Shown: in pieces, positions 29,935 to 43,964 of the stretch | How the letters are laid out: every line of letters begins with the position of its first letter | How positions within the stretch are numbered: the first letter of the stretch is position 1 | Notes under the pieces: generated by a model | Seen by the model: the letters and a program-made list of their open reading frames with translations, nothing else | What the model was told of the DNA's origin: nothing | The model's database searches: none | From: an uncultured Candidatus Saccharibacteria bacterium | GTDB lineage: Bacteria; Patescibacteriota; Saccharimonadia; Saccharimonadales; CAIOMD01 | Direction of reading: 5' to 3' | Length of the DNA stretch: 64,000 bases | NCBI GenBank assembly: GCA_964566135.1 | Contig: CAZMHM010000002.1 | Span: 1,925-65,924, forward strand | Translations under genes and position numbers: made by a program

Positions 29935-30450
29935 TTACTGACTGCTAACGAGTACTGAGTTATTTGTGCTAAATATTGCTTGGGTCTTATGGATAAAACG
30001 TGTGACCCTCGCTTCGGGTGAAATGTCCTCGCGCAATTGGCTTTTGGAACGCAGGGCGGCTTCTGTCAAACCTCGCACATGGAGGCTACACTGCAAATCA
30101 GCGCAGCAATAATAGGCAACTGTTTTAGTTTTTTCGCGGTTTAGGGTAAACGTAATAAGCGCAGTTTGATTGCGAGGTTGCATAGTGAAACAAAAATCAC
30201 AGATTATAGGTTTTGATGCACCACTCAAACCAGGTTTAATCTTTTTTAGCTCATACATAACCGCCTGGAGCTGTCCTGTAGCCTCGAACATAAGCACACC
30301 TTTAACCTCGGCTTTGTCGCATAGCGGCGCAAGATCAATTTCAGGCCAGTACTCTTTAAACTGTGATGGTACTCGGTATTCCTTTAGCTTTTTCTTATTA
30401 AAGCCACTAGTGGCAAGACTAGAGGCTAGTGATTCGAGACTGGTTAGCAT
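29935..30450 (-). CDS. FBP (FusB/FusC-type EF-G-binding protein) domain protein
   Basis: 171 aa. CDFC...CCADLQCSLHVRG resembles the C-terminal treble-clef zinc finger of FBP-family proteins. This call is from memory of the motif only. Confidence 0.55.
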   Translation of the reverse strand: MLTSLESLASSLATSGFNKKKLKEYRVPSQFKEYWPEIDLAPLCDKAEVKGVLMFEATGQLQAVMYELKKIKPGLSGASKPIICDFCFTMQPRNQTALITFTLNREKTKTVAYYCCADLQCSLHVRGLTEAALRSKSQLREDISPEARVTRFIHKTQAIFSTNNSVLVSSQ

Positions 30451-30469: not shown

Positions 30470-30571
30470 CTAGTGGACAGGGGTTTGGATTGTTGTCATG
30501 TAAATCACATAGCATACACCGACAACAAGTAGTCCAGCCAAAATAATCGTGCGTTTCCACTCTTGATTCAT
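30470..30571 (-). CDS. 33-aa single-TM mini-protein (MNQEWKRTIILAGLLVVGVCYVIYMTTIQTPVH)
   Basis: Hand-translated; it is below the track's size cut-off. Its ATG overlaps the sortase TGA as TGATG. One clear hydrophobic helix. Confidence 0.35.
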   Translation of the reverse strand: MNQEWKRTIILAGLLVVGVCYVIYMTTIQTPVH

Positions 30572-31173
30572 CATTTTTGCCCTTCTGGGAGTGCCGTAAT
30601 CACAAGTCGCTCAACAGGGTTCCATATTGGCGTACAGGTGTACAGTGTCAGTTGTGCGTTTGCCGTTGGCGCCTCTACACTAACCTCTGTTGCCTTGACA
30701 ACTTTTGCTGACTTAACGGTGTATACAAACGTCTTGCCATTCCACTGCAGGTATATTTTTTCACCAACTTTCAATTTATCGAGATGATAAAAAGGCTGCA
30801 CAACTCCATGGTTATACGAAAACCTATGGCCAACAACTACCATATTGCCTATAGCATCAGGCGTTGCGGTTGCTGGCCGATGCCACAAGCCTTTGTCGAC
30901 GGTATTTTTATCGGTTCCTTCTATGATTGGCGCAAGTGCCCCGATGCTCGGAATATACAATTGATTTTCAGATGTAGCCTGGCTGGGAGTGCCAGATGTC
31001 GTATTGCTTGATGTTGTCTGGGCACCGCTTTGTACGGCATAGGCAGGTGCAGCAACCGATTGCGGGCCATTAAAGATATAGTCTAACTGTGGCAAGAACG
31101 GTGCTAGCAAAATATAGATTGCTAGCACCACCACGAATACTGATAGACAGTTATTAATGTCCCTGTGTGTCAT
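30571..31173 (-). CDS. Sortase family transpeptidase
   Basis: N-terminal TM anchor, catalytic His (VVVGHRFSY), TLYTCTP (TLxTC Cys motif) and a downstream Arg (VERLVITA). Confidence 0.87.
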   Translation of the reverse strand: MTHRDINNCLSVFVVVLAIYILLAPFLPQLDYIFNGPQSVAAPAYAVQSGAQTTSSNTTSGTPSQATSENQLYIPSIGALAPIIEGTDKNTVDKGLWHRPATATPDAIGNMVVVGHRFSYNHGVVQPFYHLDKLKVGEKIYLQWNGKTFVYTVKSAKVVKATEVSVEAPTANAQLTLYTCTPIWNPVERLVITALPEGQK

Positions 31174-31191
31174 TTGACCTTAGTATATAAC

Positions 31192-34100
31192 TTATTTCTT
31201 TACAGTACGCGTACGAGTTGCGATAAACACACCGCCAAGCATGATTGCTGTGATAAACCAGCTTGCTGAAATCGCGCTACCAGAACCAGTGTTAACAAGT
31301 TCGGCTGGTTTTTCGACATTGAGTGTATGCGTATCGGTTGCACATACCTTTATGGCATCGTTCTTTGGCACGTTAATTGCATCAGTATTAATCTTTAAGA
31401 TACTGATTTCAGGGTTTGATTCCTCGAGCTGAGGCTCAAAACCGCAAGACGTTACGGTATTAGTTATCTGCTTGCCTTCGCTACCTGATGGAACAGTGTA
31501 TTTAGCAGTGTATATCCATGTTTCAGTAACATCTAACTTGTTGTCGCTGTTGGTATCACCAGACTGATACACGCCATTACCGGCAATATTATCTGATACA
31601 GCAATGCCTTCAAGTGGCTCGTCGCCAGCATTTGTAACGGTAAACGTATAGGTAACTACATCGCCAACCTTTGCAGTTGTTGGACCTGCTTTAACAACCT
31701 TAATTGCGGGATGAAGCACGTCTAATGTGTGCGTATCGGTTGCGCAAACTTGCGTACCTTCTTCTTCGCTGTAACCATATTCACGACCTTCGTTCCATCG
31801 ATCACCATAGTAATCACCACATGAAGTAACCGTATTTTCGACGTTAGCTACCTGTGGAGCTGGAATTGTGTACTCAACACTGCAGTAGACCCAGTCGCCG
31901 GGATATAGTGACGTAACACCATAACAATCTGCCGTACCAGCAATATCATCAACAACACTCAGATTATCGATATAGGTATCTCCAGAGTTGTATACCCAGA
32001 AGCTATAAGCAACTGTATCCCCTTCGTGAGCTACGTCAGGGCCATATTTGTAAACCTCTAGGCCAGGATTCTGGTTGTCATTATTCGTGATATAACAGGT
32101 TACATTTTCGCCGAGTGCTAGTGTTATAACGTTGCCATCTTGTTCGCCATCATTACACCACCATGTACCTGCAGCATAGCCAGTTGGACCCTGCTCTGAC
32201 AACGCATAGGCAACATTTGCAACAGCAGTTTCTTCGACAACGCCATCTTCGCCATTGCCACTAATAGTGTCTGCACCATCTTCGTCATCAGAAGGAGTTG
32301 CGGTTAATGTCCAATCACTTGGGCTGCTTTCGCCGCTATTGTTATTGATCACCTGCTTCTTCAGGGTAAGCGTTGGTGCGATTGCCGTATTCGTAACTGT
32401 ACAGGTCTTGTCGTCACCTAGTGATATTGTGCCTTCACAATCTTCGGAATACGTAACATTATAGCCATCATGGCTACCTTCGCTTACTTCGTACTCGCCA
32501 ACATTTAGAGTCAATTTCGTACCTGTCTCGCTACCATCAAATTCTTCATCGGATACATTAGTACCGTCGACATACATAGTAAAGTCACTAGCCTCGCCCG
32601 TTCCTCCACTTTTACCGTTTTCAACGTGCTTTATAACCGTTAATTTAGGCTGCACACCAGAATTGGTAATGGTGCAGGTAAAGCTTTGGCCAAGTGCAAT
32701 CGCAAGTGCTGAACTAATTGTTGTAGTCTGCTGAGTTACATTATTGACGCATGACCATTGGCTAGCAGTAAAGCCACTAGGGCCGCCAGTTTCACCAAAT
32801 GTATAGGTATCTGCCTTGAAGTTTGAACCGCTTGTTGCACCAGCAGTGCCGGTAGCACCCGAAAGGTTCGTTGGGTTATTTCCAGTACCGGTTGCTGTTA
32901 GCGTCCAGTTTGATGGATCAACTTTGCTTCCATAGGTTTCGCCAAGCTTTTTAACGAGCGTGAGCGCAGGAGTGTCATCATCATTCACAATCGTACAAAC
33001 AGTAGTTTTTCCATTCGTAAGAGTAATTTTGCTACTAACTACTGTCACGCCATTAGTACATGTCCAGGCACTTGCGGTATAACCACTAGGACCACCTGTT
33101 TCACTAAGTGTATAGGTATCTGCCTTGAAGTTTGAACCGCTTGTTGCACCAGCAGTGCCGGTAGCACCCGAAAGGTTCGTTGGCAAAGCAAGCGTACCCG
33201 TTGCCTTAAGCGTCCAATCAGTTGCATTCGCTGTTCCACCGTTATCCTTGATTAGGCTCTTTACTAACGTAAGCCCCGCAGCTTTGTCGTCATTTGTAAC
33301 AATACACGTTTTCGTTTCTCCAAGTGCAATCGAACCTGAGCAGTCAGCTCCTAAAGATTTGACATACTCATTATCTACAGTTTCATCAACCGTGTATGAA
33401 CCAGGATTTAATGTTACCGTTGTGCCCTGCTCGTCACCTGCAAAACTTGTGTTACTAACATTTGTTCCTGTTACCTTCATGGTAAAGTTTCCAGCAACTT
33501 TAGTGCCGCCGTTATCATTAACGACATGTTTTTTGATAATCAGCTTTGGAGTTACATCGTCATTTGTAATTGTGCAGTTTGTTGTCTGGTTGTGCGAAAC
33601 AACAACGTTGCTACATGTATTGGACGTCATCTGGTACCCACCCGTGTTAGGGTTTACCTCATCAACCGTGTATGTTCCGGTAGGCAAAACAATCGAGTTT
33701 GTACCGTTCCCGTTGAATGTGTACGTCTGGCCATTTACTACGAAACTAAAGTTTCCAGGAGTCTTAGTACCACCATGGTTATTGTGAACAACCTTATTTA
33801 CTACAAGTGTTCCCTTTGTAGCTGAGTTTACAAACTTGCATGAAACGATGTTGTTTGAGGCAATTTGGATACCTGTTACTGCGTTGCCATTCTTTGAACC
33901 ATTATTTGCAGCCCCTGTACAGCTAGCAGATAAAAGAGTGTAGCCAGCTTTTTGGGTCTCATTTACTGAGTACCCCGAAGCAGCGTCAACTTTGACAGCA
34001 GGAGTCTTGCCCTGGGCATCAGTTTGCGAGGCAGCTGGATTAGAGCCACCATTGACATCAAACTCCCAGCCCGCACCGGCAAGAGTCTGATCATTGGTAG

Positions 34101-34890
34101 TATTTGCATTACCATCAGCATCAATGTACTTAGTTGTAGTGACCGTACCGCCACAAGTTTGGCTTGCGAAAGTTGCAAGGCTGGTAGCCAATTGTGCAAA
34201 ATCGGTTGTGATTACATCAGATGTTAGAACATTGCCAGTGTTAGCACTTGGACCAGAGATAGCCTTTAGACGATCAAGTGAACCGCCCGATACCCCAATG
34301 CCCATCGCAAGCATACGAGTTCCGCCGTTCTTGATTGTATTAGCGGCAACAATCGCTGGGTCAAGATGCGCATTTGGTTGACCTGAATCAATCCCACCAA
34401 CTGTGTTGCTAGTCGTTGGATCTCCGTCAGTAGCAAAAATAACAAGGTTTGGGTTTGACGTCCCAGAGGCAAAAGTACTATTTGCCTTAATAAGGCCATC
34501 TTCCCAGTTGGTATAGCCGCCACCAGTAGAGACTGAATCAATTGCATTGTTTGCCGTCGTTACGTCGCTGGTGAAGTTTTGGAGCACTGTTGCACTTGTT
34601 GCGAAACGTGTCACAGAAAACTGCGTAGGAGTGCCGCTCAGCGCATTTGTAAATGCTTTTAGTGCACTTTTGAATGAGTTCATTTCATTAGTGCTAATAC
34701 TTGTAGAATTATCGATAACTATAGCTATATCGAGGCCACACGCTCTTGCAAGTGATGGATTCGCGACGGGAGAAGCAGCATGCGCCGTCCCCGCTAAAGT
34801 CGTCAATGGCCCAAACTGAGCGACCACAAACAGTAAACTTAATAATATCCACCGTGCCCTATTCAATGGGTTCTTTGCTCGCAGCTGCAT
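31192..34890 (-). CDS. Sortase-anchored surface protein: signal peptide, vWA domain, repeated Cna-B/SpaA-like Cys-pair domains, DUF11-like repeats, LVNTG sorting signal
   Basis: Signal peptide ...AGTAHA/AS. vWA MIDAS motif DNSTS at 34699..34713. At least 8 modules of about 90-100 aa end in C-x-(I/V)-(T/V)-N-(D/T/S). Near the C-terminus are VTYTFTVTNAGD-type repeats. The C-terminus reads ELVNTG (31285..31299) plus a hydrophobic helix plus RTRTVKK. The SD is strong (AAAGGAGGCGGTTATG). Confidence 0.87.
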   Translation of the reverse strand: MQLRAKNPLNRARWILLSLLFVVAQFGPLTTLAGTAHAASPVANPSLARACGLDIAIVIDNSTSISTNEMNSFKSALKAFTNALSGTPTQFSVTRFATSATVLQNFTSDVTTANNAIDSVSTGGGYTNWEDGLIKANSTFASGTSNPNLVIFATDGDPTTSNTVGGIDSGQPNAHLDPAIVAANTIKNGGTRMLAMGIGVSGGSLDRLKAISGPSANTGNVLTSDVITTDFAQLATSLATFASQTCGGTVTTTKYIDADGNANTTNDQTLAGAGWEFDVNGGSNPAASQTDAQGKTPAVKVDAASGYSVNETQKAGYTLLSASCTGAANNGSKNGNAVTGIQIASNNIVSCKFVNSATKGTLVVNKVVHNNHGGTKTPGNFSFVVNGQTYTFNGNGTNSIVLPTGTYTVDEVNPNTGGYQMTSNTCSNVVVSHNQTTNCTITNDDVTPKLIIKKHVVNDNGGTKVAGNFTMKVTGTNVSNTSFAGDEQGTTVTLNPGSYTVDETVDNEYVKSLGADCSGSIALGETKTCIVTNDDKAAGLTLVKSLIKDNGGTANATDWTLKATGTLALPTNLSGATGTAGATSGSNFKADTYTLSETGGPSGYTASAWTCTNGVTVVSSKITLTNGKTTVCTIVNDDDTPALTLVKKLGETYGSKVDPSNWTLTATGTGNNPTNLSGATGTAGATSGSNFKADTYTFGETGGPSGFTASQWSCVNNVTQQTTTISSALAIALGQSFTCTITNSGVQPKLTVIKHVENGKSGGTGEASDFTMYVDGTNVSDEEFDGSETGTKLTLNVGEYEVSEGSHDGYNVTYSEDCEGTISLGDDKTCTVTNTAIAPTLTLKKQVINNNSGESSPSDWTLTATPSDDEDGADTISGNGEDGVVEETAVANVAYALSEQGPTGYAAGTWWCNDGEQDGNVITLALGENVTCYITNNDNQNPGLEVYKYGPDVAHEGDTVAYSFWVYNSGDTYIDNLSVVDDIAGTADCYGVTSLYPGDWVYCSVEYTIPAPQVANVENTVTSCGDYYGDRWNEGREYGYSEEEGTQVCATDTHTLDVLHPAIKVVKAGPTTAKVGDVVTYTFTVTNAGDEPLEGIAVSDNIAGNGVYQSGDTNSDNKLDVTETWIYTAKYTVPSGSEGKQITNTVTSCGFEPQLEESNPEISILKINTDAINVPKNDAIKVCATDTHTLNVEKPAELVNTGSGSAISASWFITAIMLGGVFIATRTRTVKK
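32801..32874 (-). repeat. 74-nt perfect intragenic direct repeat, copy 1
   Basis: gtataggtatctgccttgaagtttgaaccgcttgttgcaccagcagtgccggtagcacccgaaaggttcgttgg is identical to 33110..33183. The offset is 309 nt, which is 103 codons and therefore in frame. Confidence 0.95.
33110..33183 (-). repeat. 74-nt perfect intragenic direct repeat, copy 2
   Basis: Identical to 32801..32874. Both copies encode PTNLSGATGTAGATSGSNFKADTYT. Confidence 0.95.
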
Positions 34891-35066
34891 AACCGCCTCC
34901 TTTAAATTGCAAAAAGACAGCCAGCCTATTTTGTCCCTTTTTTTGGGAAGCTAGGCTAGTTGTGTTTTCTATTATTCAAACTCCGCAGAGGAGGTTTCGC
35001 CACTTGCTCCGATTACGCTTGGCGACCAAGATACCGCGTAACCATCAATGCACTCTGTTAAAAATT

Positions 35067-35094
35067 ACTATACTCGCATACATGACATTTGCAA
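35067..35094 (-). promoter_or_regulatory. Putative promoter of the vWA surface-protein gene (TTGCAA-N16-TATAGT)
   Basis: On the minus strand, -35 is at 35094..35089 and -10 at 35072..35067. This predicts a 5' UTR of about 170 nt. Confidence 0.45.
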
Positions 35095-35217
35095 ATACAT
35101 TTTTTTATTTTATAGCTATACCGCTTATGTTAAAGAAAATACTGCATTTTATATACACGAGGTGGCCTGTCATCAACAATGACATCTCAAAATTTAGTAT
35201 TGATACTACGTTCCGGA

Positions 35218-35676
35218 TTACGATAAATACTTCGTGAATCTCTGATTCTTTTTGCCAGATTCGACAATTTCACGCAACATATTTAGTTCGTCACTATCAA
35301 GTTTTGTAAGCCCTTGGGCTAGAAAGTCAATAATGAGATTATCGTTTGGGTCTGCTAACTCTAGTGCCCGCAAGAACACTTTGTTGTAACCTTCTTTGTA
35401 CACTTGGCTTAATAAGGTGGCGAGCTCAATATAATCGTCATTTGGTAATTCTGGCCCTAGGTGGGAAGCAATTATATCTGCAACCTGCTTATCGCCAATA
35501 CAATACATCTGAATATCAAGGTAATGCTCTACTGTCGAATTAACACTATGCACGGCAGCAAGAACTGTGCTAAATCTAGTGTCCATTTCAGAAACCAAAG
35601 CCGAATTCTCTTTTAACCAAGTTTGATGCTGATTAGAGATAGCCTGTTTCTCTGCCTTTGAAAATATCGACTGCAC
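35218..35676 (-). CDS. Hypothetical 152-aa cytoplasmic protein (candidate orphan immunity protein)
   Basis: ORF track entry. Third small gene downstream of the RHS toxin. No signal peptide, acidic and helical. Confidence 0.5.
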   Translation of the reverse strand: MQSIFSKAEKQAISNQHQTWLKENSALVSEMDTRFSTVLAAVHSVNSTVEHYLDIQMYCIGDKQVADIIASHLGPELPNDDYIELATLLSQVYKEGYNKVFLRALELADPNDNLIIDFLAQGLTKLDSDELNMLREIVESGKKNQRFTKYLS

Positions 35677-35700: not shown

Positions 35701-36216
35701 TTAGCGAGTCTTGTAGGCAAAAATACTATTGATATCTTTGATTACGTCATTAGCCCGATCTTCAACTTGCGATATTTCCCAACCCTTATTTTTATACGTG
35801 TTTGCAATATCCGCTCTGAGTATATCGCAAGCTTTTTCGTAATTGCCGAAAATCTCGCTTACATAGTGAGAAATCTGTCGTTGATACTCACGGGAAAGAT
35901 TTGCTTGCGCCTGAGCGTAATTGTTGTTTTGAGGGTCATCAAGTGTCTCATAGAACATAGGGTTATTTGCCCACTCGGGGAACGAAGTAATGTCACCTGA
36001 TGCTTCGTGGTGCGACGTAACCCAGTCTTCTGGCACCCAATCATCAATAACTTGCAAATCGGACGCATTAATAGGATACGGATACGTGTCATCAGGACCA
36101 CGCATCACCGCTAGAACCTCTCCGCCCTTCTCATTGGCAATAATTGCCGTAACCAAGTAAAAATGGTTACTTTCTATCGGATATTCCTGCGTTTCATTAG
36201 CCAAGGCTACAATCAT
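35701..36216 (-). CDS. Hypothetical 171-aa cytoplasmic protein (candidate immunity protein)
   Basis: ORF track entry. Second small gene downstream of the RHS toxin. No signal peptide, acidic, Trp/Asp-rich. Confidence 0.5.
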   Translation of the reverse strand: MIVALANETQEYPIESNHFYLVTAIIANEKGGEVLAVMRGPDDTYPYPINASDLQVIDDWVPEDWVTSHHEASGDITSFPEWANNPMFYETLDDPQNNNYAQAQANLSREYQRQISHYVSEIFGNYEKACDILRADIANTYKNKGWEISQVEDRANDVIKDINSIFAYKTR

Positions 36217-36292: not shown

Positions 36293-36721
36293 CTATATAA
36301 GTGCTTTCTTTAAACTTGAGAATTTTTCAGGAATTGACTCTTTCTCGCCATCAAGAATTCGCTTCATCACCCAAGCCATAGGGAAAATTGTATAACCATC
36401 TTTCAGCACATACGGATAGGTATTACTACCTACTGTTTCGTCATCCTGAAACCAGTCACCATCGATATCATTTTTTCTAAGGAAACTCACGATTACGGCT
36501 GCATTTTTAATTGCAATACTACTCAATAAGAGCTCAGGGTCCCGACTTGCATATATCGAATTAAGTCTGCTGTTCAGGTCAAGCGCTATGGCGTCAATCG
36601 TCACCAGACAGTTTTTGTCAACATTTAGTTCGAAACCGAGGTCGGCAGCCGCCGAGATTGCGTCTCGTATATATTTTTGCTCAAGTTCATGCGGAATATT
36701 GTTCATGGTTGTTAATAGCAT
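36293..36721 (-). CDS. Hypothetical 142-aa protein, probable cognate immunity protein of the RHS C-terminal toxin
   Basis: Its start lies 4 nt after the RHS stop codon, on the same strand, and it has no signal peptide. The assignment is by position only. Confidence 0.55.
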   Translation of the reverse strand: MLLTTMNNIPHELEQKYIRDAISAAADLGFELNVDKNCLVTIDAIALDLNSRLNSIYASRDPELLLSSIAIKNAAVIVSFLRKNDIDGDWFQDDETVGSNTYPYVLKDGYTIFPMAWVMKRILDGEKESIPEKFSSLKKALI

Positions 36722-36725
36722 ACAC

Positions 36726-39700
36726 TTAATACTTTGTAATTGTCAGTAAACCGTTACTAGCTGCGTCTTCAAGAGGGCCCGATAGCCGTGCGTCGGAATT
36801 GATTTTTAAAATAAAGGAGAGGTTATCCCTTTGGCTAATACTAACGTAGTCGCGAATTTGATTGGTATATGTTTGATATTGAACATTCTTAGTCTCGCCA
36901 AGAACTCGAGAATTAAGTGTGTCAGGAACACGATATCTCCCAGGTCGCAATACCGAATCGACCCTCGTTGTATTTTGTACTGTATTTGATCGCACCATAC
37001 CGTCGGCGTACTTTTCAAATGCAGTGGCAACTTTTCCTTCAGCTTCAGAAGCATGGGGAGCTATTTGTGCTGCGGTCGGCGTCGAGAACCAATTTTTTAC
37101 TGCTGTTACAACCTTGCCGCCAGAGCTCAACGCTCTACTGCCAGTTGAAATGATTGCACCAGAGCTTCTTGCAACTAGAGCCGCCGCAGTAATATATGGG
37201 GCACTCGCTGCGATTGCTCCAGCTGCCGCGGCGCAGAATGCAATACACGCCGCTACTGCCGCTACTGCAACAACTACTGCTACGGCCACTACAACAGCCT
37301 TGCCCCACGATGGTAGCCCGTTAAACCATTTCTTGACACTCCACATCCCGTTATAATCCGCATAATTGACTGGGTCTAGTACGTATGAGTAGCTATTCGG
37401 CGTGCCGCCCTCAACAGGGTCTACCTGTAGGAACCTGCCTAGCGTAGGCAAGTATACGCGTGCACCCATTTGGATTATTGGGATGCTAAACATGCTTTCT
37501 GACTTACGGGCAGGGTTTGCCGCCCAGCCCATACCTTCGTTACTTGCATTTGTTGGATTCCCACTAGTGCCAAAAGTTGTCGATGCGATAGGTAAGCCAA
37601 ACGGATCATAAAGGTAAACTGCACTTGTGGCAGTCCCATCTTTGCCAACAGTTATAGCGGTGTCGCCATGGAAATTCTTTATAGAATACGTATCGGTGGT
37701 GTTAATGGTCAGCCCTACACCACCAGGTAACGAAACATACTTATCGGCTATTGCGCACTGATTTTCATCTTGTACGTTGCACGTAAGCATTACACTCGAG
37801 CTATTTCGATATATCTTATCAAGTACGCCGTTTCTGAATTCTTTTTTTACAAGGACACTGCCGCTGACAGTTTTGGTGTACTCGACACGGTTTTGACCTT
37901 GCGTAATCGAGATATTCTGATCGTCAGCAGTGTATCCAAATGAAATCGGCGTACCAGCACCAGCAAGCTCGGTAATATTGCCATGATCGTCATAAACAGG
38001 AGTGCCTATTTGCCCATCGCTCGAACTAATCAGCCTATCGGCGCTATCGTAACAGCTGTTTACCGTCGTGGTGACACTTGTAGTGTTATTTGTCACTGTA
38101 TAGGATGTTCTGTTGCCATTCTTATTGGCGTTGGCATTATAGCCGGTCAAGCTACTACAGCTCGAGTCTTGTGCTCCAAATCCATACTGATACAGCATAT
38201 TATCGACGGATGTACTCGTTAGCCTACCGCCTGTGTCATATCCATAGGTTGCCCCTCCGGTTTTGCCATCAAAGCTATTCGCGTAATTAAGCACTATACC
38301 TGATTGCAATGATGATGTGACAGTTTCATCAAATTGCTTACCATCGCTAAGGCTAAATGTTGCTCCCGAATTCTGTTGCATGGCGTCACGTTTAACCTGG
38401 GTAAGTTTCATGTTTGTTCCGTTGGCCTGCGCCTGCGGATATTCAACATTCAGAATTCGGCCAAATTGATCATAGCTTGTTGACGCATATATCTTTCCGT
38501 CTATCGAGTAACTCGTTGGCCTATCGAGAGAATCATATAGATACGATTCTGAACCTTTTATAGATACGATTGACACAATGTGACCAAAGTTATCGCGATT
38601 GATAGTAGTCTCATATCCAAAACTATCGGTTACCTTGACAGGCCTGCCAAGCAAATCAGATTCACTGATACTCGTGCCCGTAACACTGTCCGTCTGGGCA
38701 GTAATGAGTGGATTACCATTGTGCGCAAAGTTATTACTGATGGTGCGCCCAGGCCTTCCATTAACCGTAGGCGAAACCATCTGAACAATCCGGCCTCTAG
38801 CATCAAGACGGGTACAAGTCCATGCATCGTTATTAAACCTTGTTGCTACTACGCGACCCGAGGCATCATACACCGATTCGCTGGTGCGCGACGTTAATGG
38901 ACCTGCGCCATCAGGGTCAGGCTCAGCCTTACCTTTAGCAAATCCAGCCTGGCTAACGGCAATACTGTTTGCGTCACAAGGGTTAGCAATTACGTCTTCT
39001 GTTGCACGATAATACTGATACGCATAGCTATTTCCGCCAGGTAGGGTCTTGGCTGTTTGGCGCATTAAGCTCCCTGCTTGGTATGGCTCGTAAGCAATTG
39101 AGCTTGTAAGATTTAGCCCGCCAGCGTCAGCAGTGATTGATTTTTCTTGGCCAAGTTCTGGTTGCGAACCATAATCTTTTTTTAGCGTGACATTCGAAGT
39201 TTGACTATCATAGGTCGTTGTCGAGGTTACGAGGTTATATGCCGGCCTCATAACATTCGACCAGAACGGATTGCCCGTAGAAAGATCCAGGCCGCCTCCC
39301 TTTATTCTCATACTAAATGCCATGTAGTCATTACCGACGTTGGCATAGTCATACTTAAACCTATAGGGTTTGTTGGCTTCAAGCGTTATTGCCGCCGAGT
39401 AGCTCATCTTGATAGCAGTCCCCCGGTTTGCCCAGTCATCTATGACAAGTTTATCGTCGATATAAAGTCTGGCGGCATCTTCGTGGTTAATCTGGAAGGT
39501 ATAGCTTGCATTTGCGGGCAATACCAGTACGCCTGTTGCAATAAATCCTACACCAGTTGCGCTAGTTGATTTTGTAATCGGCGCAGCCCGATAGTTTGAA
39601 TCTTGCCAAAACAAGTCCGGCTGCTGGCTGTCAAAGCCAGTCTGGTGATACTTTGAAGCTCCAACAAAGGATCCGCCGTTAGCCGAAGAATAGTCATACC

Positions 39701-42700
39701 ATGCCACTGCAGGGCCCTTAAAACCTTCATCATACTTCGTGCTTGTGCGCGGAACTTTGTTCTCGTTTTCGACAAGTGGTTTTAGGTTCGTCCCAAACCA
39801 TCCACTTGGCGCCGGACCGTATGATTCAATTGGCAAATCATTCGCATCGTAAATGGTCGTTGATTTCAGACCGGTTGGATCCGTAGACGCATACAATAAG
39901 TCTTTTGTGCTATCCCATGTACGGGTAGACACGAGACCATCCTTGGCCATGGTACGAACTGGGCGCAACAATGAATCGTATTCCACTCGTTGTGCGTATC
40001 CGTTCGGCATTGAAGATTTCGTGATAACCCATTTATCGTTTGCATCCTTAGCTGACGTGTAGCCATCAGTCATCTCTGCAAAGCCAACGACCTTTTCTTT
40101 CTCATCGCCTGTCCCTAATAAAGTAGAGTTTGGCACATACCTATATGTATGTATTCCCCTCACTCCTCCACTAGAGGCCGAAGGCATAACTACCTGCTCG
40201 ACACGCCCAATACTGTCGTAGACAAACTGCGTCGTTACGGTGTCGTCATTTGCGCGCACGCCAGCATCTACGACATCATTGGCGGTGCTACCTTTGAGTT
40301 GTACAATTCTTCCGTTGGTGTCATATCCGATATCTTGCCTGATACCACCACTCGTTGCGAGTTGCGATAACCTATAGACTTCCTGGTTATTAATGACTAC
40401 TTTTTTGTACCAGAAATTTGTAAAGTTATTATCGGTAGTCTCTGTCCGACACAACATTCCAGCCGGAGCGCGCACTAAGCCATCAGGAGCATTATTCGGA
40501 GAATTACACTGACTATCGCCGCCATAGTACACACGCAAGTTTCGGCTAATATCTACACCATCAATGATCTTTGTTACGTGAGCCGGCGAGCCACCATATT
40601 CATAACGCAATGCCGCTAGTCGTAAATCATCAGTTGGAGTCGTCACTGTTTTTAGTAAACCATCCGTACCAAAATCATATGTCCTGCCATCACTATCAAG
40701 TAGCACAAAAGTACCGTCTGCATTGCGTGCAAGATAGCCGTATTCGTTTACGGGTGGCTTATATGCGCTGCCCGTCCATGTATACTCATGCGTATCGCCG
40801 TTAGAGTCATAGATTAAGGCGCCAGTTGACGTCGCCTTAAGCCTCTCGTAGGCAATACTACCAGTAGGGTCGATGCCCATCGTCCAGCCTTCTGGCAATG
40901 TATTTGCTCCTGTAGTAAGCCAACTACTTGGTACCGTTTCGCTTCGGGTAGCGTTAAGCCATTTAACATAGAACTGCATGGCTGCACCACTGCCATTCTC
41001 ATAGTAGTCAATCGTAACTTTTCGAGTTGTCCCCTCTGCTAGTCGCAGTAATGCCCCACACTGATTTGCGGTTACGCCCTGATCCCTCCAGTAATCTGCA
41101 TACAGCGCATCGTCAAGATACAACCTAAAGCCATCATCGGCCCCGATACAAAACTGATAATCTGTTGTTTGCGGAACCGTGATATAGCCCGACCATCGAG
41201 TCACGACCCTATCTGCAATTCCCGAGCCTGGCAAGAACTCGCCTGTTCCCCAGTTGAATTGCATAACTTTGTCTTGACGCGTCATAAATGGTGCCCTTGC
41301 TTGAGGAACTGCGAAGCCCTCGCCGTCGTTCAGCTTGTAATAACGACCGGTCAAACCAGCATTAGGTTTAGTTGCTTTCAAGCCAGTGCGTAACCAGTCG
41401 TTTGGAATAACGCGGTCGCTGATAATGACAGCTCCTGAGGTATCTTTAGCCCGAACCCACATCTTTGCCTGTGCGCCGCCACCATATTCAATCATCCATG
41501 CATTAAGTGGAACGGCTTGGCCTTCGACCAAATCAATGCCAACAGTGTCCCCCCAACTACTTCCGGGAGCGGTGTAGTCGAACACAAGCGTTCCGTTAAT
41601 AGCCGCGGACATTTTGTCATCGCGGGTTGAACCAAAATAGTACTTTCCCGTCTTAGGGGCCACGAAATATCCAGTCCAATTAGCCGCAAAGTTATCCGCG
41701 ACAATTGTCCCTGGCTGCGGGCTTGATAGCCCCCAATCAAAGTCAATATTTGCATCAACACGCGTTAGGCCAACTTTTGTAGCATCTCCGCCTGGCGCAT
41801 TGTAATACGTTGCATCAAGCCCTTTTTGACTCATAACAGGCGAATTGTAATCCAAATTTATACCCATCGCCCCGCCAAGCGCATTCATAGTGTTAGAGCC
41901 TACACTAGTCGTAAGGTTACCCGTTACCAAGTTAACTGATGTGCCTGCGACTTCGTCGTATACCTGAGAATTATTTTTACCCGTTCGCAAGTCTACTTTA
42001 AATGGTATTGGTTGTGTCACGTTCCAATAGTCACCACCCCTTGCATAGTGAGTTGTGACATCGGCGTTATCAAATACATAACCGCAGAACCAATACGTCT
42101 GACCATCGTCAAGCACTCCGTCAGGTACAGTCCACTGCGTAGCTGGTACTAATTGCGAATCGACTAAAATGCTAGCCGGATTCCAACAATCTACTGGTTT
42201 CGATGTCATAACCCTAAACCAATATTTAAGTGTATCGCCATTACCGTCACCACTTGCTCCCATTTTAAACGAAGGCTGAGTGCTCGTTAGAATCTGAGGG
42301 TTGCCCGAACTATTGGCAGGTAAGGCAGGCACTATTGGGGTCGGTGCGGTTGGTTGTTTGTTGTAGTCTACGAGATACATATCTACAAAGGTGCCGTATG
42401 GGTCAAGTTGTTTAAAGCTCGTTGTGTTCCATTCTTCGCCATAAATCATTAGCCAACCACCATAGTCACCACGGCTTTGTAGCCATCTAAAGATTGGTGC
42501 AATATCTGCCCATCCATCCGTTGCCATCTGGAATTGGACAACTGGCGCACCGCCTCCGTTATTGTAATTAAACGCAGGTAGCCATGTAACATACATCCAG
42601 CGAGTATCGGTATAGCCTACCCAACTTGCTGTACCAAGGCGCATATTGGTATGTAGCCATGCAGACTCAATGTAGCGACCGTTCGCATCACCGTAAGGGA

Positions 42701-43964
42701 TTTGAAATCCGGTATGCCAAAGTCTCTTACCGGCACCAGCTTGGTTTAATGAACCTGTATACATCCAACAGTTTGCACTAGAACACACGTAGCCGTCAGA
42801 CTTGTAATCGACATAACTATTGCTGTTGTTGTTTACCCCTCTACGCCACGCCCCAAAACTTGGGTCGACTACCACCGGAAAGCTCGTCTTTGGCAAAGAG
42901 CTCAACCAGCTTGGCAGAACTTGTACCACAAAGAAACCGTTTTTGTAGGTGACTTTGATTGGTGGATTACTCATCGGGCCCTCACCCCAAACACTAACCG
43001 TAAAAGGGGCGATGTTGATTTTCGAATCTTTAACCGCCCAATAACCGTCACCTGCATCTACAAGCTCGCCTCCAAGAACCTTAAACATATATGTGTTTGC
43101 AGCCGAAGCATTCTTTATAACAATTGATTCTTTGATTGATTCCGGGCTGATATCGTACTGCAAATCAATGCCATTCCAGGCATCTTTATATGCAATGTAG
43201 TTCCGCCCCTTATCTGTAACTTCTTTAGGGATTACTTTGTCTGATGTACCAATTGGCACAAAACGCACGCTTTTTACTCCGTCACTCACAAGCATACCGT
43301 CACCATCCATGAGCGTCTGCAGTTGTACAGACAGCTCGGATGTTTTTGCATTTAGCGCGGTAGGTTGCGAAGAACCAGGGAGTATTTTTTGCAGGATACT
43401 TTCGCTTTGCTTACGATTTTTGGCGTAGTTTGTATCACTACTTGTCGAGTTATCATGTTTTTGCCAGCCTGATGACGTCTTATCATTTGTAGATGTCGCA
43501 CCAATCCGTTTTGCCAGTGTACCGTCGGCTAACGTCTGCTGGTTTGTCTTTGCATCGACAGCTTCCAGTTTACCTGTGTCAATTTTCCTCGCAGATTTTT
43601 GGTGCTCTGAAGTAATGCTTTTGCCAACATCAGAAGGATTAATAGTATCTTCTTGTTTTGCACTCTCTGGAATACTACTCATATCAGCGGCCTGCGTTAT
43701 TTTCTGGTCTTGGGCAGATTTTTGGCTGGCAGATAAAGGCTTTGATTTCCCGTTTTCGGCAACCGCCTTATTAACATTCGTAGCAATAGGTAGCAAGAAC
43801 GATGCTACAAATGCAACAATAAAAAACAGCGCCATGAGACGCTGTTTTTGGGAGTTAACCTTTGAAAGAGGGCGCGAAAAAGCGCCTGTCGCCGCGATAA
43901 ATAGTGGACGTTTTGGACTTTTTGCGGTGTTTGTGTGGATGCGCTTCAAATGCAAATATGGCAT
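36726..43964 (-). CDS. RHS/YD-repeat polymorphic toxin (WapA-like): signal/TM, N-terminal beta-rich region, 3 PA14 domains, YD-repeat shell, RHS core motif, hydrophobic linker, PD-ExK nuclease-like C-terminus
   Basis: 2412 aa. The N-terminal hydrophobic segment is MALFFIVAFVASFLLPIATNVNKAVA. PA14-like blocks lie at about aa 715-845 (41430..41822), 869-1003 (40956..41360) and 1415-1560 (39285..39722), each with YY...F.W...P...F..RWTG-type patterns. There are many YD repeats (YEYGG, IGYDTNGR, FVYDSIGR, VEYDSLLR, YGYDTGGR...). The RHS core end reads GARVYLPTLGRFLQVDPVEGG..NSYSYVLDPVNYADYNGMW. A 204-aa C-terminal module follows. Confidence 0.92.
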   Translation of the reverse strand: MPYLHLKRIHTNTAKSPKRPLFIAATGAFSRPLSKVNSQKQRLMALFFIVAFVASFLLPIATNVNKAVAENGKSKPLSASQKSAQDQKITQAADMSSIPESAKQEDTINPSDVGKSITSEHQKSARKIDTGKLEAVDAKTNQQTLADGTLAKRIGATSTNDKTSSGWQKHDNSTSSDTNYAKNRKQSESILQKILPGSSQPTALNAKTSELSVQLQTLMDGDGMLVSDGVKSVRFVPIGTSDKVIPKEVTDKGRNYIAYKDAWNGIDLQYDISPESIKESIVIKNASAANTYMFKVLGGELVDAGDGYWAVKDSKINIAPFTVSVWGEGPMSNPPIKVTYKNGFFVVQVLPSWLSSLPKTSFPVVVDPSFGAWRRGVNNNSNSYVDYKSDGYVCSSANCWMYTGSLNQAGAGKRLWHTGFQIPYGDANGRYIESAWLHTNMRLGTASWVGYTDTRWMYVTWLPAFNYNNGGGAPVVQFQMATDGWADIAPIFRWLQSRGDYGGWLMIYGEEWNTTSFKQLDPYGTFVDMYLVDYNKQPTAPTPIVPALPANSSGNPQILTSTQPSFKMGASGDGNGDTLKYWFRVMTSKPVDCWNPASILVDSQLVPATQWTVPDGVLDDGQTYWFCGYVFDNADVTTHYARGGDYWNVTQPIPFKVDLRTGKNNSQVYDEVAGTSVNLVTGNLTTSVGSNTMNALGGAMGINLDYNSPVMSQKGLDATYYNAPGGDATKVGLTRVDANIDFDWGLSSPQPGTIVADNFAANWTGYFVAPKTGKYYFGSTRDDKMSAAINGTLVFDYTAPGSSWGDTVGIDLVEGQAVPLNAWMIEYGGGAQAKMWVRAKDTSGAVIISDRVIPNDWLRTGLKATKPNAGLTGRYYKLNDGEGFAVPQARAPFMTRQDKVMQFNWGTGEFLPGSGIADRVVTRWSGYITVPQTTDYQFCIGADDGFRLYLDDALYADYWRDQGVTANQCGALLRLAEGTTRKVTIDYYENGSGAAMQFYVKWLNATRSETVPSSWLTTGANTLPEGWTMGIDPTGSIAYERLKATSTGALIYDSNGDTHEYTWTGSAYKPPVNEYGYLARNADGTFVLLDSDGRTYDFGTDGLLKTVTTPTDDLRLAALRYEYGGSPAHVTKIIDGVDISRNLRVYYGGDSQCNSPNNAPDGLVRAPAGMLCRTETTDNNFTNFWYKKVVINNQEVYRLSQLATSGGIRQDIGYDTNGRIVQLKGSTANDVVDAGVRANDDTVTTQFVYDSIGRVEQVVMPSASSGGVRGIHTYRYVPNSTLLGTGDEKEKVVGFAEMTDGYTSAKDANDKWVITKSSMPNGYAQRVEYDSLLRPVRTMAKDGLVSTRTWDSTKDLLYASTDPTGLKSTTIYDANDLPIESYGPAPSGWFGTNLKPLVENENKVPRTSTKYDEGFKGPAVAWYDYSSANGGSFVGASKYHQTGFDSQQPDLFWQDSNYRAAPITKSTSATGVGFIATGVLVLPANASYTFQINHEDAARLYIDDKLVIDDWANRGTAIKMSYSAAITLEANKPYRFKYDYANVGNDYMAFSMRIKGGGLDLSTGNPFWSNVMRPAYNLVTSTTTYDSQTSNVTLKKDYGSQPELGQEKSITADAGGLNLTSSIAYEPYQAGSLMRQTAKTLPGGNSYAYQYYRATEDVIANPCDANSIAVSQAGFAKGKAEPDPDGAGPLTSRTSESVYDASGRVVATRFNNDAWTCTRLDARGRIVQMVSPTVNGRPGRTISNNFAHNGNPLITAQTDSVTGTSISESDLLGRPVKVTDSFGYETTINRDNFGHIVSIVSIKGSESYLYDSLDRPTSYSIDGKIYASTSYDQFGRILNVEYPQAQANGTNMKLTQVKRDAMQQNSGATFSLSDGKQFDETVTSSLQSGIVLNYANSFDGKTGGATYGYDTGGRLTSTSVDNMLYQYGFGAQDSSCSSLTGYNANANKNGNRTSYTVTNNTTSVTTTVNSCYDSADRLISSSDGQIGTPVYDDHGNITELAGAGTPISFGYTADDQNISITQGQNRVEYTKTVSGSVLVKKEFRNGVLDKIYRNSSSVMLTCNVQDENQCAIADKYVSLPGGVGLTINTTDTYSIKNFHGDTAITVGKDGTATSAVYLYDPFGLPIASTTFGTSGNPTNASNEGMGWAANPARKSESMFSIPIIQMGARVYLPTLGRFLQVDPVEGGTPNSYSYVLDPVNYADYNGMWSVKKWFNGLPSWGKAVVVAVAVVVAVAAVAACIAFCAAAAGAIAASAPYITAAALVARSSGAIISTGSRALSSGGKVVTAVKNWFSTPTAAQIAPHASEAEGKVATAFEKYADGMVRSNTVQNTTRVDSVLRPGRYRVPDTLNSRVLGETKNVQYQTYTNQIRDYVSISQRDNLSFILKINSDARLSGPLEDAASNGLLTITKY

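What the first reader, a model, noticed from the sequence alone, without database searches (positions are those of the whole stretch)
30571..34890. vWA-headed, multi-domain surface protein with a non-canonical LVNTG sorting signal and its adjacent sortase
The 1232-aa protein has a signal peptide and a vWA domain with an intact MIDAS motif (DNSTS). It then has a long stalk of about 90-100-aa modules, each with a Cys pair and ending in ..C.(I/V)TN(D/T).., followed by two DUF11-like repeats. Its C-terminus is ELVNTG, then a hydrophobic helix, then RTRTVKK. The sortase gene starts 18 nt downstream. LVNTG differs from the LPXTG (class A) and LAXTG (class E) consensus motifs, suggesting a lineage-specific sortase/substrate pair. 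A vWA tip on a rigid stalk is the architecture of pilus-tip adhesins.
Basis: partly seen in the sequence, partly recalled or inferred. Interest (0 to 1): 0.66.

Follow-up and report, generated by a model that had tools for sequence, protein, structure and literature searches.

The report
Saccharibacteria wall-anchored vWA adhesin plus sortase
A two-gene operon in a Saccharibacteria (CPR) genome encodes a long stalked adhesin and the sortase predicted to attach it to the cell wall; the unusual LVNTG attachment signal recurs across the lineage, so this is an ordinary kind of system with an apparently undescribed lineage-specific signal.

Summary
A 1232-aa secreted protein (31192-34890, minus strand) has a signal peptide, an N-terminal vWA domain with a complete MIDAS site, seven Cys-paired stalk modules and two DUF7507/DUF11 repeats. 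It ends in LVNTG, a hydrophobic helix and RTRTVKK. A 200-aa sortase gene starts 18 nt downstream.

The genome is a Saccharimonadales (Patescibacteria) genome. The stalk modules are SpaA_2/CnaB-type domains whose Lys/Glu/Asn isopeptide triad is 96-100% conserved in 1084 homologous modules.

LVNTG is not a chance match. It is the commonest sorting motif among 120 homologs (20 LVNTG, 4 LVDTG). The adhesin-sortase adjacency is kept in the three closest genomes. L[VA][NDK]TG is 22-fold enriched in C-terminal tails near homologous sortases.

The sortase has the His-Cys-Arg triad. It reaches no NCBIfam class A-F cut-off and lacks the class E tyrosine, the class E loop insertion, and the class C lid and C-terminal anchor.

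The head resembles pilus-tip adhesins (PitA, SpaC, RrgA), but the 64-kb window holds no backbone pilin, pilin motif or pilus sortase. The best reading is a single wall-anchored adhesin of an epibiont. It is a lineage-specific variant of a well-known system, of moderate interest, and all biochemistry is inferred.

The parts
34891..35217 (-). Upstream intergenic region, probable promoter region of the adhesin-sortase operon
   Evidence: 327 nt without an ORF. It holds sigma-70-like sites at 35173-35146 (10/12 match) and 35094-35067. The number of such sites in the scanned region is not above the shuffled expectation, so this is positional inference only.
31192..34890 (-). Adhesin gene (1232 aa): signal peptide, vWA head, CnaB-type stalk, DUF7507 repeats, LVNTG sorting signal
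   Evidence: ORF. Pfam hits: VWA, SpaA_4, 6x SpaA_2 (E 9.5e-76), 2x DUF7507. 396 homologs at E<=1e-10, several of them named VWA domain-containing protein of Ca. Saccharibacteria.
34777..34890 (-). Sec signal peptide (residues 1-38, cleavage after AHA)
   Evidence: Basic n-region, hydrophobic core WILLSLLFVVAQF, AHA|A site, read directly from the sequence. The start and the leader are conserved in P0121.
34153..34740 (-). vWA domain (residues 51-246) with MIDAS D60/S62/S64/T127/D155, bracketed by invariant C51 and C246
   Evidence: PF00092 E 1.2e-14. Invariant columns in alignment A2. AF2 model has pLDDT 85 and a Rossmann-like alternating strand/helix pattern. Foldseek matches vWA domains of PitA, SpaC, integrin and ANTXR.
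33820..34098 (-). First stalk module (residues 265-357), SpaA_4-like, Cys324-Cys351
   Evidence: PF24514 E 1.2e-05, 26.5 bits, just under the 27.3-bit cut-off. Weak match to the module HMM. All-beta in the AF2 model.
32077..33819 (-). Six SpaA_2/CnaB-type stalk modules (residues 358-938), each with a Lys...Glu...Asn triad and a Cys pair
   Evidence: PF19403, 6 stretches. Module alignment. In 1084 homologous modules: K 96%, E 100%, N 99%, second Cys 99%.
31321..32076 (-). Two DUF7507/DUF11-type repeats (about residues 939-1190) with three further Cys pairs
   Evidence: PF24346, 2 stretches, E 1.3e-20. PF01345 E 6.7e-06. TIGR01451 E 8.9e-09. Cys positions.
31195..31299 (-). Cell-wall sorting signal: LVNTG (31285-31299), hydrophobic segment, RTRTVKK tail
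   Evidence: Sequence. It is the only such tail in the 64-kb window. TIGR01167 scores 12.2 bits, below the 15.9-bit cut-off. The motif recurs in homologs.
31174..31191 (-). 18-nt intergenic spacer with an AAGG ribosome-binding-site-like element; no terminator
   Evidence: Sequence. No terminator-like site lies between the two genes.
30571..31173 (-). Sortase gene (200 aa): N-terminal TM helix (residues 3-35), linker, catalytic barrel (residues 68-200) with H116, C180 (TLYTC) and R189
   Evidence: PF04203 E 6.6e-29. The triad is invariant in 34 homologs. AF2 model pLDDT 87. Foldseek matches sortases at E about 1e-11. It is the only sortase in the window.

Best explanation
This is a two-gene operon of a Saccharimonadales (Patescibacteria/CPR) bacterium. 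It encodes a sortase-anchored, single-polypeptide surface adhesin and its dedicated membrane-bound sortase.

Proposed pathway, all steps inferred unless noted:
1. The precursor is exported by Sec and its leader is cut after AHA.
2. The C-terminal hydrophobic helix and RTRTVKK tail hold it in the membrane.
3. The sortase (Cys180/His116/Arg189) cleaves LVNT|G, forms a thioacyl intermediate and transfers the protein to a peptidoglycan precursor.
4. The protein ends up covalently linked to the cell wall.

The rod consists of seven CnaB-type Ig-like modules and two DUF7507 repeats. Six of the modules carry a Lys-Asn isopeptide triad and all seven carry a disulfide. The rod holds an N-terminal vWA domain with a metal-ion (MIDAS) binding site tens of nanometres from the wall, where it binds a ligand, most plausibly on the surface of the host bacterium of this epibiont.

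Valine at the second motif position (the Pro of LPXTG) and Asn at the third are the lineage's preferred signal, read by a Saccharibacteria-specific sortase clade.

Shown here: sequence features, folds, conservation, synteny and motif enrichment. Inferred: cleavage, wall linkage, isopeptide and disulfide formation, and the ligand.
For: Anatomy is.

Sortase:
- The catalytic triad and TLYTC are invariant in 34 homologs.
- The fold is a sortase fold with an N-terminal TM helix.

Operon: 18-nt spacer with AAGG and no terminator.

Lineage: 285 relatives were found in genome contigs, and most of the 80 kept are labelled Saccharibacteria or Saccharimonadales MAGs.

Synteny: a co-directional adhesin-sortase pair 15-27 nt apart occurs in L001, L002 and L003, with LVDTG or LVNTG. 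A further sortase clade has large L[VA][NDK]TG proteins adjacent.

Motif:
- 73 of 120 adhesin homologs carry a sorting signal. LVNTG (20) is the most frequent, and P3 = Val in 26.
- The motif is 22-fold enriched in C-terminal tails.

Stalk: the isopeptide triad is conserved at 96-100% in 1084 modules.

Head: MIDAS residues are invariant, and the head resembles vWA adhesins.

Context: surface adhesins are essential for epibiotic growth of a cultured Saccharibacterium (PMC10633639). A sortase family is present in more than half of CPR genomes (PMC6744442).
Against: - There is no biochemical evidence for cleavage at LVNT|G, for wall linkage, or for isopeptide or disulfide bonds.
- Only one substrate is visible in 64 kb, so the full substrate set of this genome is unknown.
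- Some related sortases sit near small [LIV]P[ND]TG proteins. The clade may therefore accept Pro as well as Val at P3, and specificity for Val is not demonstrated.
- SrtE1, a class E enzyme, cleaves both LPETG and LAETG in vitro (PMC5148588). This shows that motif bias need not mean strict specificity.
- Promoter-like sites are not above chance.
- The ligand is unknown.
Confidence: 0.75

Rival explanations
1. The protein is the tip pilin of a sortase-assembled pilus, as RrgA, SpaC and PitA are. It would be joined by the sortase to a backbone pilin encoded elsewhere.
For: The top Foldseek hits of residues 39-448 are the pilus-tip adhesins PitA (7w6b, E 1.9e-15) and SpaC (6m3y), with RrgA (2ww8) also matching. 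The best PDB sequence and fold matches of the sortase are class C enzymes, by a very small margin. A JGI source names one homolog a fimbrial isopeptide formation D2 family protein.
Against: - The window contains no other SpaA/CnaB protein, no other sorting signal and no second sortase.
- The protein has no YPK pilin motif.
- The sortase has no lid segment and no C-terminal membrane anchor. It scores 67 bits against the class C cut-off of 160.
- The vWA domain lies directly after the signal peptide, not nested inside a CnaB domain.
- A rod of nine Ig-like domains already supplies the reach that a pilus shaft would.
- The syntenic loci L001-L003 likewise show only the pair.
Confidence: 0.08
2. 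LVNTG is only a tolerated variant of LPXTG or LAXTG, processed by an ordinary class E-like housekeeping sortase. On this reading there is no lineage-specific enzyme-signal co-adaptation.
For: - Class E is the best-scoring NCBIfam model (88.8 bits), and NCBI names one homolog (P0050) a class E sortase.
- LVNTG also occurs in an actinobacterial adhesin, Gardnerella Cna (PMC12095359).
- Relatives near the same sortase family carry LA.TG, LP.TG, LT.TG and LG.TG signals.
- SrtE1 cleaves both LAETG and LPETG.
Against: - The score is far below the class E cut-off of 160.
- The class E tyrosine is replaced by Arg99 (WHR versus GHY), and the longer beta6/beta7 loop is absent, in alignment with an annotated Streptomyces class E sortase (hallmarks from PMC5148588).
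- Identity to every reference class is only 27-36%, against 37-69% within the Saccharibacteria clade.
- Val at P3 is the plurality state among homologs, not a rare variant.
- Sortase sub-clades track different adjacent motifs.
Confidence: 0.15
3. The protein stays membrane-anchored through its C-terminal helix, or is released. The neighbouring sortase would then serve other substrates, and the adjacency would be incidental.
For: Only in-silico evidence links the two genes. In many related loci no sorting-signal protein lies within 10 kb of the sortase.
Against: - The 15-27-nt co-directional adjacency is conserved in genomes whose sortases are only 51-66% identical over the full length.
- The tripartite signal (motif, hydrophobic segment, basic tail) sits at the canonical distance from the C-terminus.
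- The motif is strongly enriched in tails.
- The window holds no other candidate substrate.
Confidence: 0.05

Closest known systems
Sortase-anchored stalked adhesins of Gram-positive bacteria (MSCRAMM/Cna-type, with CnaB isopeptide stalks)
   Same: Signal peptide, N-terminal ligand-binding head, tandem CnaB-type Ig-like modules with a Lys/Glu/Asn triad, a C-terminal pentapeptide followed by a hydrophobic segment and a basic tail, and an adjacent sortase gene.
   Different: The head is a vWA/MIDAS domain rather than a DEv-IgG or collagen-binding domain. Every module also carries a conserved Cys pair. The signal is LVNTG. The organism is an ultrasmall CPR epibiont, not a Firmicute or Actinobacterium.
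vWA-bearing pilus-tip adhesins RrgA (S. pneumoniae), SpaC (L. rhamnosus GG) and PitA (S. oralis)
   Same: A vWA/MIDAS head combined with CnaB-type domains, and the best structural matches. All are sortase substrates.
   Different: In those proteins the vWA domain is inserted into a CnaB domain (established knowledge of the RrgA and SpaC structures, not tested here). They are joined to backbone pilins by lid-bearing class C sortases. Here the vWA domain is terminal, the stalk lies within the same polypeptide, and no pilin or class C sortase is present.
Class E sortases (SrtE1 of Streptomyces coelicolor; housekeeping sortases of Actinobacteria) with LAXTG signals
   Same: A non-proline residue at P3 of the signal, N-terminal membrane-anchor topology, and the best (sub-threshold) NCBIfam match.
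   Different: It lacks the beta3/beta4-loop tyrosine (Arg99 instead) and the extended beta6/beta7 loop. It lacks the long cytoplasmic N-terminal extension. It has a family-specific 3-4-residue insertion after GHRF. It scores 88.8 bits against a cut-off of 160.
Gardnerella vaginalis Cna fibrinogen-binding adhesin
   Same: The only published protein found here with a reported non-canonical LVNTG sorting motif (PMC12095359).
   Different: It belongs to an unrelated organism (Actinobacteria), has a different head (N2/N3 DEv-IgG) and has a PKD-rich stalk. In that paper the motif is treated as an isolated oddity.

Membership tests
Sortase superfamily (PF04203, cysteine transpeptidase C60) | Pfam model above the gathering score | tested here: met
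   100.6 bits against 26.6.
Sortase superfamily (PF04203, cysteine transpeptidase C60) | His-Cys-Arg catalytic triad with a TLxTC motif | tested here: met
   H116, C180 (TLYTC) and R189 are invariant in 34 homologs.
Sortase superfamily (PF04203, cysteine transpeptidase C60) | Eight-stranded beta-barrel fold | tested here: met
   AF2 model pLDDT 87. Foldseek matches many sortase structures at E about 1e-10 to 1e-11.
Class E sortase | NCBIfam NF033747 above the curated cut-off | tested here: not met
   88.8 bits against 160.
Class E sortase | Conserved Tyr in the beta3/beta4 loop that reads the P3 residue (PMC5148588) | tested here: not met
   In alignment with a PGAP-annotated Streptomyces class E sortase, GHY aligns with WHR (Arg99). 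Across the 34 aligned homologs this position is mostly Arg or Leu.
Class E sortase | Extended beta6/beta7 loop | tested here: not met
   The window sortase is 8 residues shorter than the class E reference in this loop and has the same length as classes A, C and D.
Class E sortase | Substrates with LAXTG | tested here: inconclusive
   The substrate has a non-Pro P3 residue (Val). LA.TG variants occur in relatives.
Class C (pilus-specific) sortase | NF033745 above the cut-off; N-terminal lid over the active site; C-terminal membrane anchor | tested here: not met
   67.4 bits against 160. Residues 52-70 form a low-confidence linker without a DP(F/W/Y) motif. The protein ends 11 residues after Arg189, whereas the E. 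faecium class C reference has a C-terminal extension of about 110 residues ending in a hydrophobic anchor.
Class D sortase | NF033746 or NF058671 above the cut-off | tested here: not met
   72 bits against 165, and 82 bits against 140.
Class A sortase | Match to the class A model; LPXTG substrates | tested here: not met
   No class A model appears among the NCBIfam hits at E<=0.01. The adjacent substrate has Val, not Pro.
Sortase substrate (cell-wall sorting signal) | Pentapeptide ending in TG, then a hydrophobic segment of about 20 residues, then a basic tail, at the extreme C-terminus | tested here: met
   LVNTG, 23 mostly hydrophobic residues, then RTRTVKK.
Sortase substrate (cell-wall sorting signal) | TIGR01167 LPXTG_anchor above the cut-off | tested here: not met
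   12.2 bits against 15.9. No other dedicated NCBIfam model matches.
Sortase substrate (cell-wall sorting signal) | Cleavage between Thr and Gly and amide linkage to peptidoglycan | not testable with these tools
   Requires biochemistry.
CnaB/SpaA-type isopeptide domain | Match to SpaA-family Pfam models | tested here: met
   PF19403, 6 stretches, E 9.5e-76. PF17802 E 9e-11.
CnaB/SpaA-type isopeptide domain | Lys in the first strand, catalytic Glu and Asn in the last strand, all conserved | tested here: met
   K 96%, E 100% and N 99% in 1084 modules. All six SpaA_2 modules of this protein carry them. Assigning these residues to the CnaB triad rests on established knowledge of CnaB domains.
CnaB/SpaA-type isopeptide domain | Isopeptide bond actually formed | not testable with these tools
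   Needs mass spectrometry or a crystal structure.
vWA/MIDAS adhesin domain | DxSxS...T...D metal-ion-dependent adhesion site on a vWA fold | tested here: met
   D60, S62, S64, T127 and D155 are invariant. PF00092. The fold matches vWA domains.
Sortase-assembled pilus tip pilin (RrgA/SpaC/PitA type) | Operon with a backbone pilin (pilin-motif Lys, E-box) and a class C sortase | tested here: not met
   The window contains no other SpaA-module protein, sorting signal or sortase, and the protein has no YPK motif. The syntenic loci L001-L003 show only the pair.
Sortase-assembled pilus tip pilin (RrgA/SpaC/PitA type) | vWA head combined with CnaB domains | tested here: met
   Foldseek top hits are 7w6b, 6m3y and 2ww8.

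The most novel reading that the evidence does not exclude
Saccharibacteria (and related Patescibacteria) possess their own sortase class, outside classes A-F. It would have co-evolved with an L-V-N-T-G signal (Val at P3, Asn at P2) and would display isopeptide- and disulfide-reinforced vWA adhesins that mediate attachment of these epibionts to their host bacteria. On this reading the fast-diverging adhesin-sortase pair would be a determinant of host range.
Probability: 0.35. Interest if true: 0.6.

Novelty: new variant of a known kind. Interest (0 to 1): 0.42.

Why it matters
Saccharibacteria are obligate epibionts, and how they attach to their hosts is only partly understood. Type IV pili and a few adhesins have been shown to matter.

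A covalently wall-anchored vWA adhesin family about 1000-2000 aa long, with its own sortase clade and sorting motif, is a concrete and testable candidate for host recognition. It would also be further genomic evidence for a Gram-positive-like, peptidoglycan-based envelope in CPR bacteria.

There are two practical consequences. First, the canonical LPXTG-anchor model misses these tails (12.2 bits against a cut-off of 15.9), so current annotation under-counts CPR surface proteins, and a dedicated model would fix that. Second, a sortase that prefers LVNTG would be an orthogonal tool for sortase-mediated protein ligation.

Tried and rejected
- Assigning the sortase to a class by structure failed. 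Foldseek against the PDB and a profile search of PDB sequences place classes C, A, D and E within about one to two orders of magnitude of E-value, which is not discriminating.
- A literature search with LANTG and LPNTG as substrings was swamped by 'PlantG...' words. It was repeated as whole words.
- A search of the window for further substrates, pilins or sortases found none, both with strict and relaxed tail scans and with HMMs of the sortase and of the stalk module.
- Promoter and terminator scans gave nothing above chance.
- No paper in the library links Saccharibacteria or Patescibacteria to a specific sorting motif or to vWA adhesins. The Pam pilus paper and the Southlakia Tn-seq paper do not mention this family.
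- Isopeptide geometry could not be measured because model coordinates are not exposed.
- I considered and rejected filing the enzyme as class E, because two structural hallmarks and the cut-off all fail.
- I considered and rejected filing the adhesin as a pilus tip, because no pilus components are present.
Full report
**Observation**

The two ORFs exist exactly as described. The 1232-aa ORF lies at 31192..34890 and the 200-aa ORF at 30571..31173, both on the minus strand. They are separated by 18 nt that contain AAGG 6 nt before the second ATG, and no terminator-like site lies between them.

The large protein has the following parts:
- A Sec leader ending in AHA|A.
- A vWA domain (PF00092, E 1.2e-14).
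- One SpaA_4-like module, scoring just under its Pfam cut-off, and six SpaA_2 modules (PF19403, E 9.5e-76).
- Two DUF7507/DUF11 repeats.

Seven modules end in C.[IVF][TV]N, and each holds a Cys pair. All 22 Cys of the protein fall into 11 neighbouring pairs. The C-terminus reads ELVNTG, then 23 mostly hydrophobic residues, then RTRTVKK. It is the only such tail in the 64-kb window.

**Organism**

Sortase homologs and genome loci are mostly from Candidatus Saccharibacteria or Saccharimonadales MAGs. Two of these genomes (L001, L002) share 91-92% identical ClpB and RadA with the window.

**The sortase**

- His116, Cys180 (TLYTC) and Arg189 are invariant in 34 homologs.
- The AF2 model (pLDDT 87) shows an N-terminal TM helix (residues 3-35), a low-confidence linker and the sortase barrel. 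It shows no lid and no C-terminal anchor.
- No NCBIfam class model reaches its cut-off: class E 88.8/160, SrtD 82/140, class D 72/165, class C 67/160, class F 32/166.
- PDB sequence and fold searches rank classes C, D, A and E almost equally.
- tblastn against annotated plasmid sortases gives 27-36% identity to every class.

I aligned the enzyme with a PGAP-annotated Streptomyces class E sortase. The class E beta3/beta4-loop tyrosine (GHY) corresponds to Arg99 (WHR), and the longer class E beta6/beta7 loop is absent. The Saccharibacteria family also carries its own 3-4-residue insertion after GHRF. The class E hallmarks are taken from PMC5148588. The enzyme is therefore a sortase, but it is not a demonstrable member of any described class.

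**Is LVNTG more than chance?**

Of the 120 best homologs of the adhesin, 73 carry a sorting signal. The counts are:

| Motif | Count |
|---|---|
| LVNTG | 20 |
| LAVTG | 8 |
| LPATG | 6 |
| LVDTG | 4 |

Val occupies P3 in 26 of the 73.

Among 80 loci around homologous sortases:
- The window's own clade (L001-L003) keeps a large adhesin 15-27 nt upstream and co-directional, ending in LVDTG or LVNTG.
- A second group of sortases has large L[VA][NDK]TG proteins adjacent.
- A third clade has small [LIVT][PT][NDS]TG proteins 2-3.5 kb away.

L[VA][NDK]TG occurs 16 times in the last 50 residues and 4 times elsewhere in 1032 ORFs, a 22-fold enrichment per residue.

The canonical LPXTG-anchor model scores below its threshold on this tail (12.2 against 15.9 bits), and no dedicated NCBIfam model matches it. 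In the searchable literature, LVNTG appears only once, as an oddity of a Gardnerella adhesin. No paper links CPR sortases to a motif.

**The adhesin**

The MIDAS residues D60, S62, S64, T127 and D155, and the bracketing C51 and C246, are invariant in 16 homologs.

The six SpaA_2 modules each have Lys in the first strand, Glu in Y.V.E...GY and Asn in C.ITN. In 1084 homologous modules these residues are conserved at 96%, 100% and 99%, and the second Cys at 99%. By established knowledge of CnaB domains this is the intramolecular isopeptide triad. Bond formation itself is inferred.

The AF2 model of residues 39-448 (pLDDT 85) best matches the vWA pilus-tip adhesins PitA and SpaC, with Mfa5 and RrgA among the further matches.

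**Pilus or single adhesin?**

The resemblance to tip pilins is real, but the defining context is missing:
- There is no second SpaA-type protein, no other sorting signal and no second sortase in the window.
- There is no pilin motif.
- The sortase has no lid or C-terminal anchor.
- The vWA domain is terminal rather than nested.
- Syntenic genomes also show only the pair.

The nine-domain rod within one polypeptide replaces a pilus shaft. I therefore read the protein as a stand-alone wall-anchored adhesin.

**Mechanism**

The steps below are all inferred:
1. Sec export.
2. Retention by the C-terminal helix and basic tail.
3. Cleavage at LVNT|G by Cys180.
4. Transfer to a peptidoglycan precursor.
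5. Display of the MIDAS head on a rod stabilised by isopeptide and disulfide bonds.

A role in attachment to the host bacterium fits the epibiotic lifestyle and the essentiality of surface adhesins in Southlakia (PMC10633639). It is not tested here.

The pair evolves faster than its neighbours. The adhesin is about 69% identical and the sortase about 64-66% identical over the full length (68% in the catalytic domain for L001). ClpB and RadA are 91-92% identical. This is as expected for a host-interaction locus.

**Verdict**

The system is a lineage-specific variant of the classical sortase-anchored adhesin. Its interest is moderate and rests on an apparently uncurated CPR sorting motif and sortase clade, and on a candidate host-attachment factor.

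Noticed in passing
window 36726-43964 (-), plus small ORFs at 36293-36721, 35701-36216 and 35218-35676: A 2412-aa Rhs/YD-repeat protein with three PA14 domains, a GLEYA domain and a C-terminal Tox-REase-7 nuclease lies directly upstream of the adhesin operon. Three small ORFs without Pfam hits follow it and are candidate immunity or orphan genes. In L001 and L002 the Rhs cassette lies on the other side of the adhesin-sortase pair.
   Followed up: partly
homologs P0137, P0145, P0164, P0165, P0172, P0196-P0200 and others: About 30 of the 120 SpaA_2-stalk homologs have no sortase signal. They end instead in a conserved '...DAYNNSGD...(S/A)FWN(V/I/L)LP' C-terminus, which is an unexplained alternative C-terminal signature.
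   Followed up: no
L004, L006, L007, L009, L010, L015, L016, L020 and L030, 2-3.5 kb downstream of the sortase: One Saccharibacteria sortase clade is accompanied by a small (160-230 aa) protein on the opposite strand that ends in an [LIVT][PT][NDS]TG sorting signal. This is a second, Pro-containing substrate type in the lineage.
   Followed up: partly
L042 7470-9965 and L049 7365-9971: Proteins of 831 and 868 aa lie immediately upstream of the sortase and end in 'GGELQPTSSRSS..FFLGVLLLSGVLFLQFLKLKLKEV'. This may be a further signal variant (LQPTS).
   Followed up: no
window 31192-34890 and 30571-31173 compared with L001 and L002: The adhesin (about 69% identity, with a different module number: 1232 against 1505-1565 aa) and the sortase (about 64-66%) diverge much faster than the flanking ClpB and RadA (91-92%). 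In L002 the best sortase ORF is only 141 aa, possibly truncated.
   Followed up: partly
P0225 (Anaerolineales, 1565 aa): This homolog combines SpaA_2 stalk modules with a sortase domain (PF04203) in one polypeptide, according to the precomputed Pfam hits.
   Followed up: no
window 29935-30450 (-): The gene downstream of the sortase encodes a 171-aa protein with an FBP_C treble-clef zinc-finger domain (PF16571). It is followed by RadA and a PIN/TRAM protein, and it appears unrelated to the surface system.
   Followed up: no
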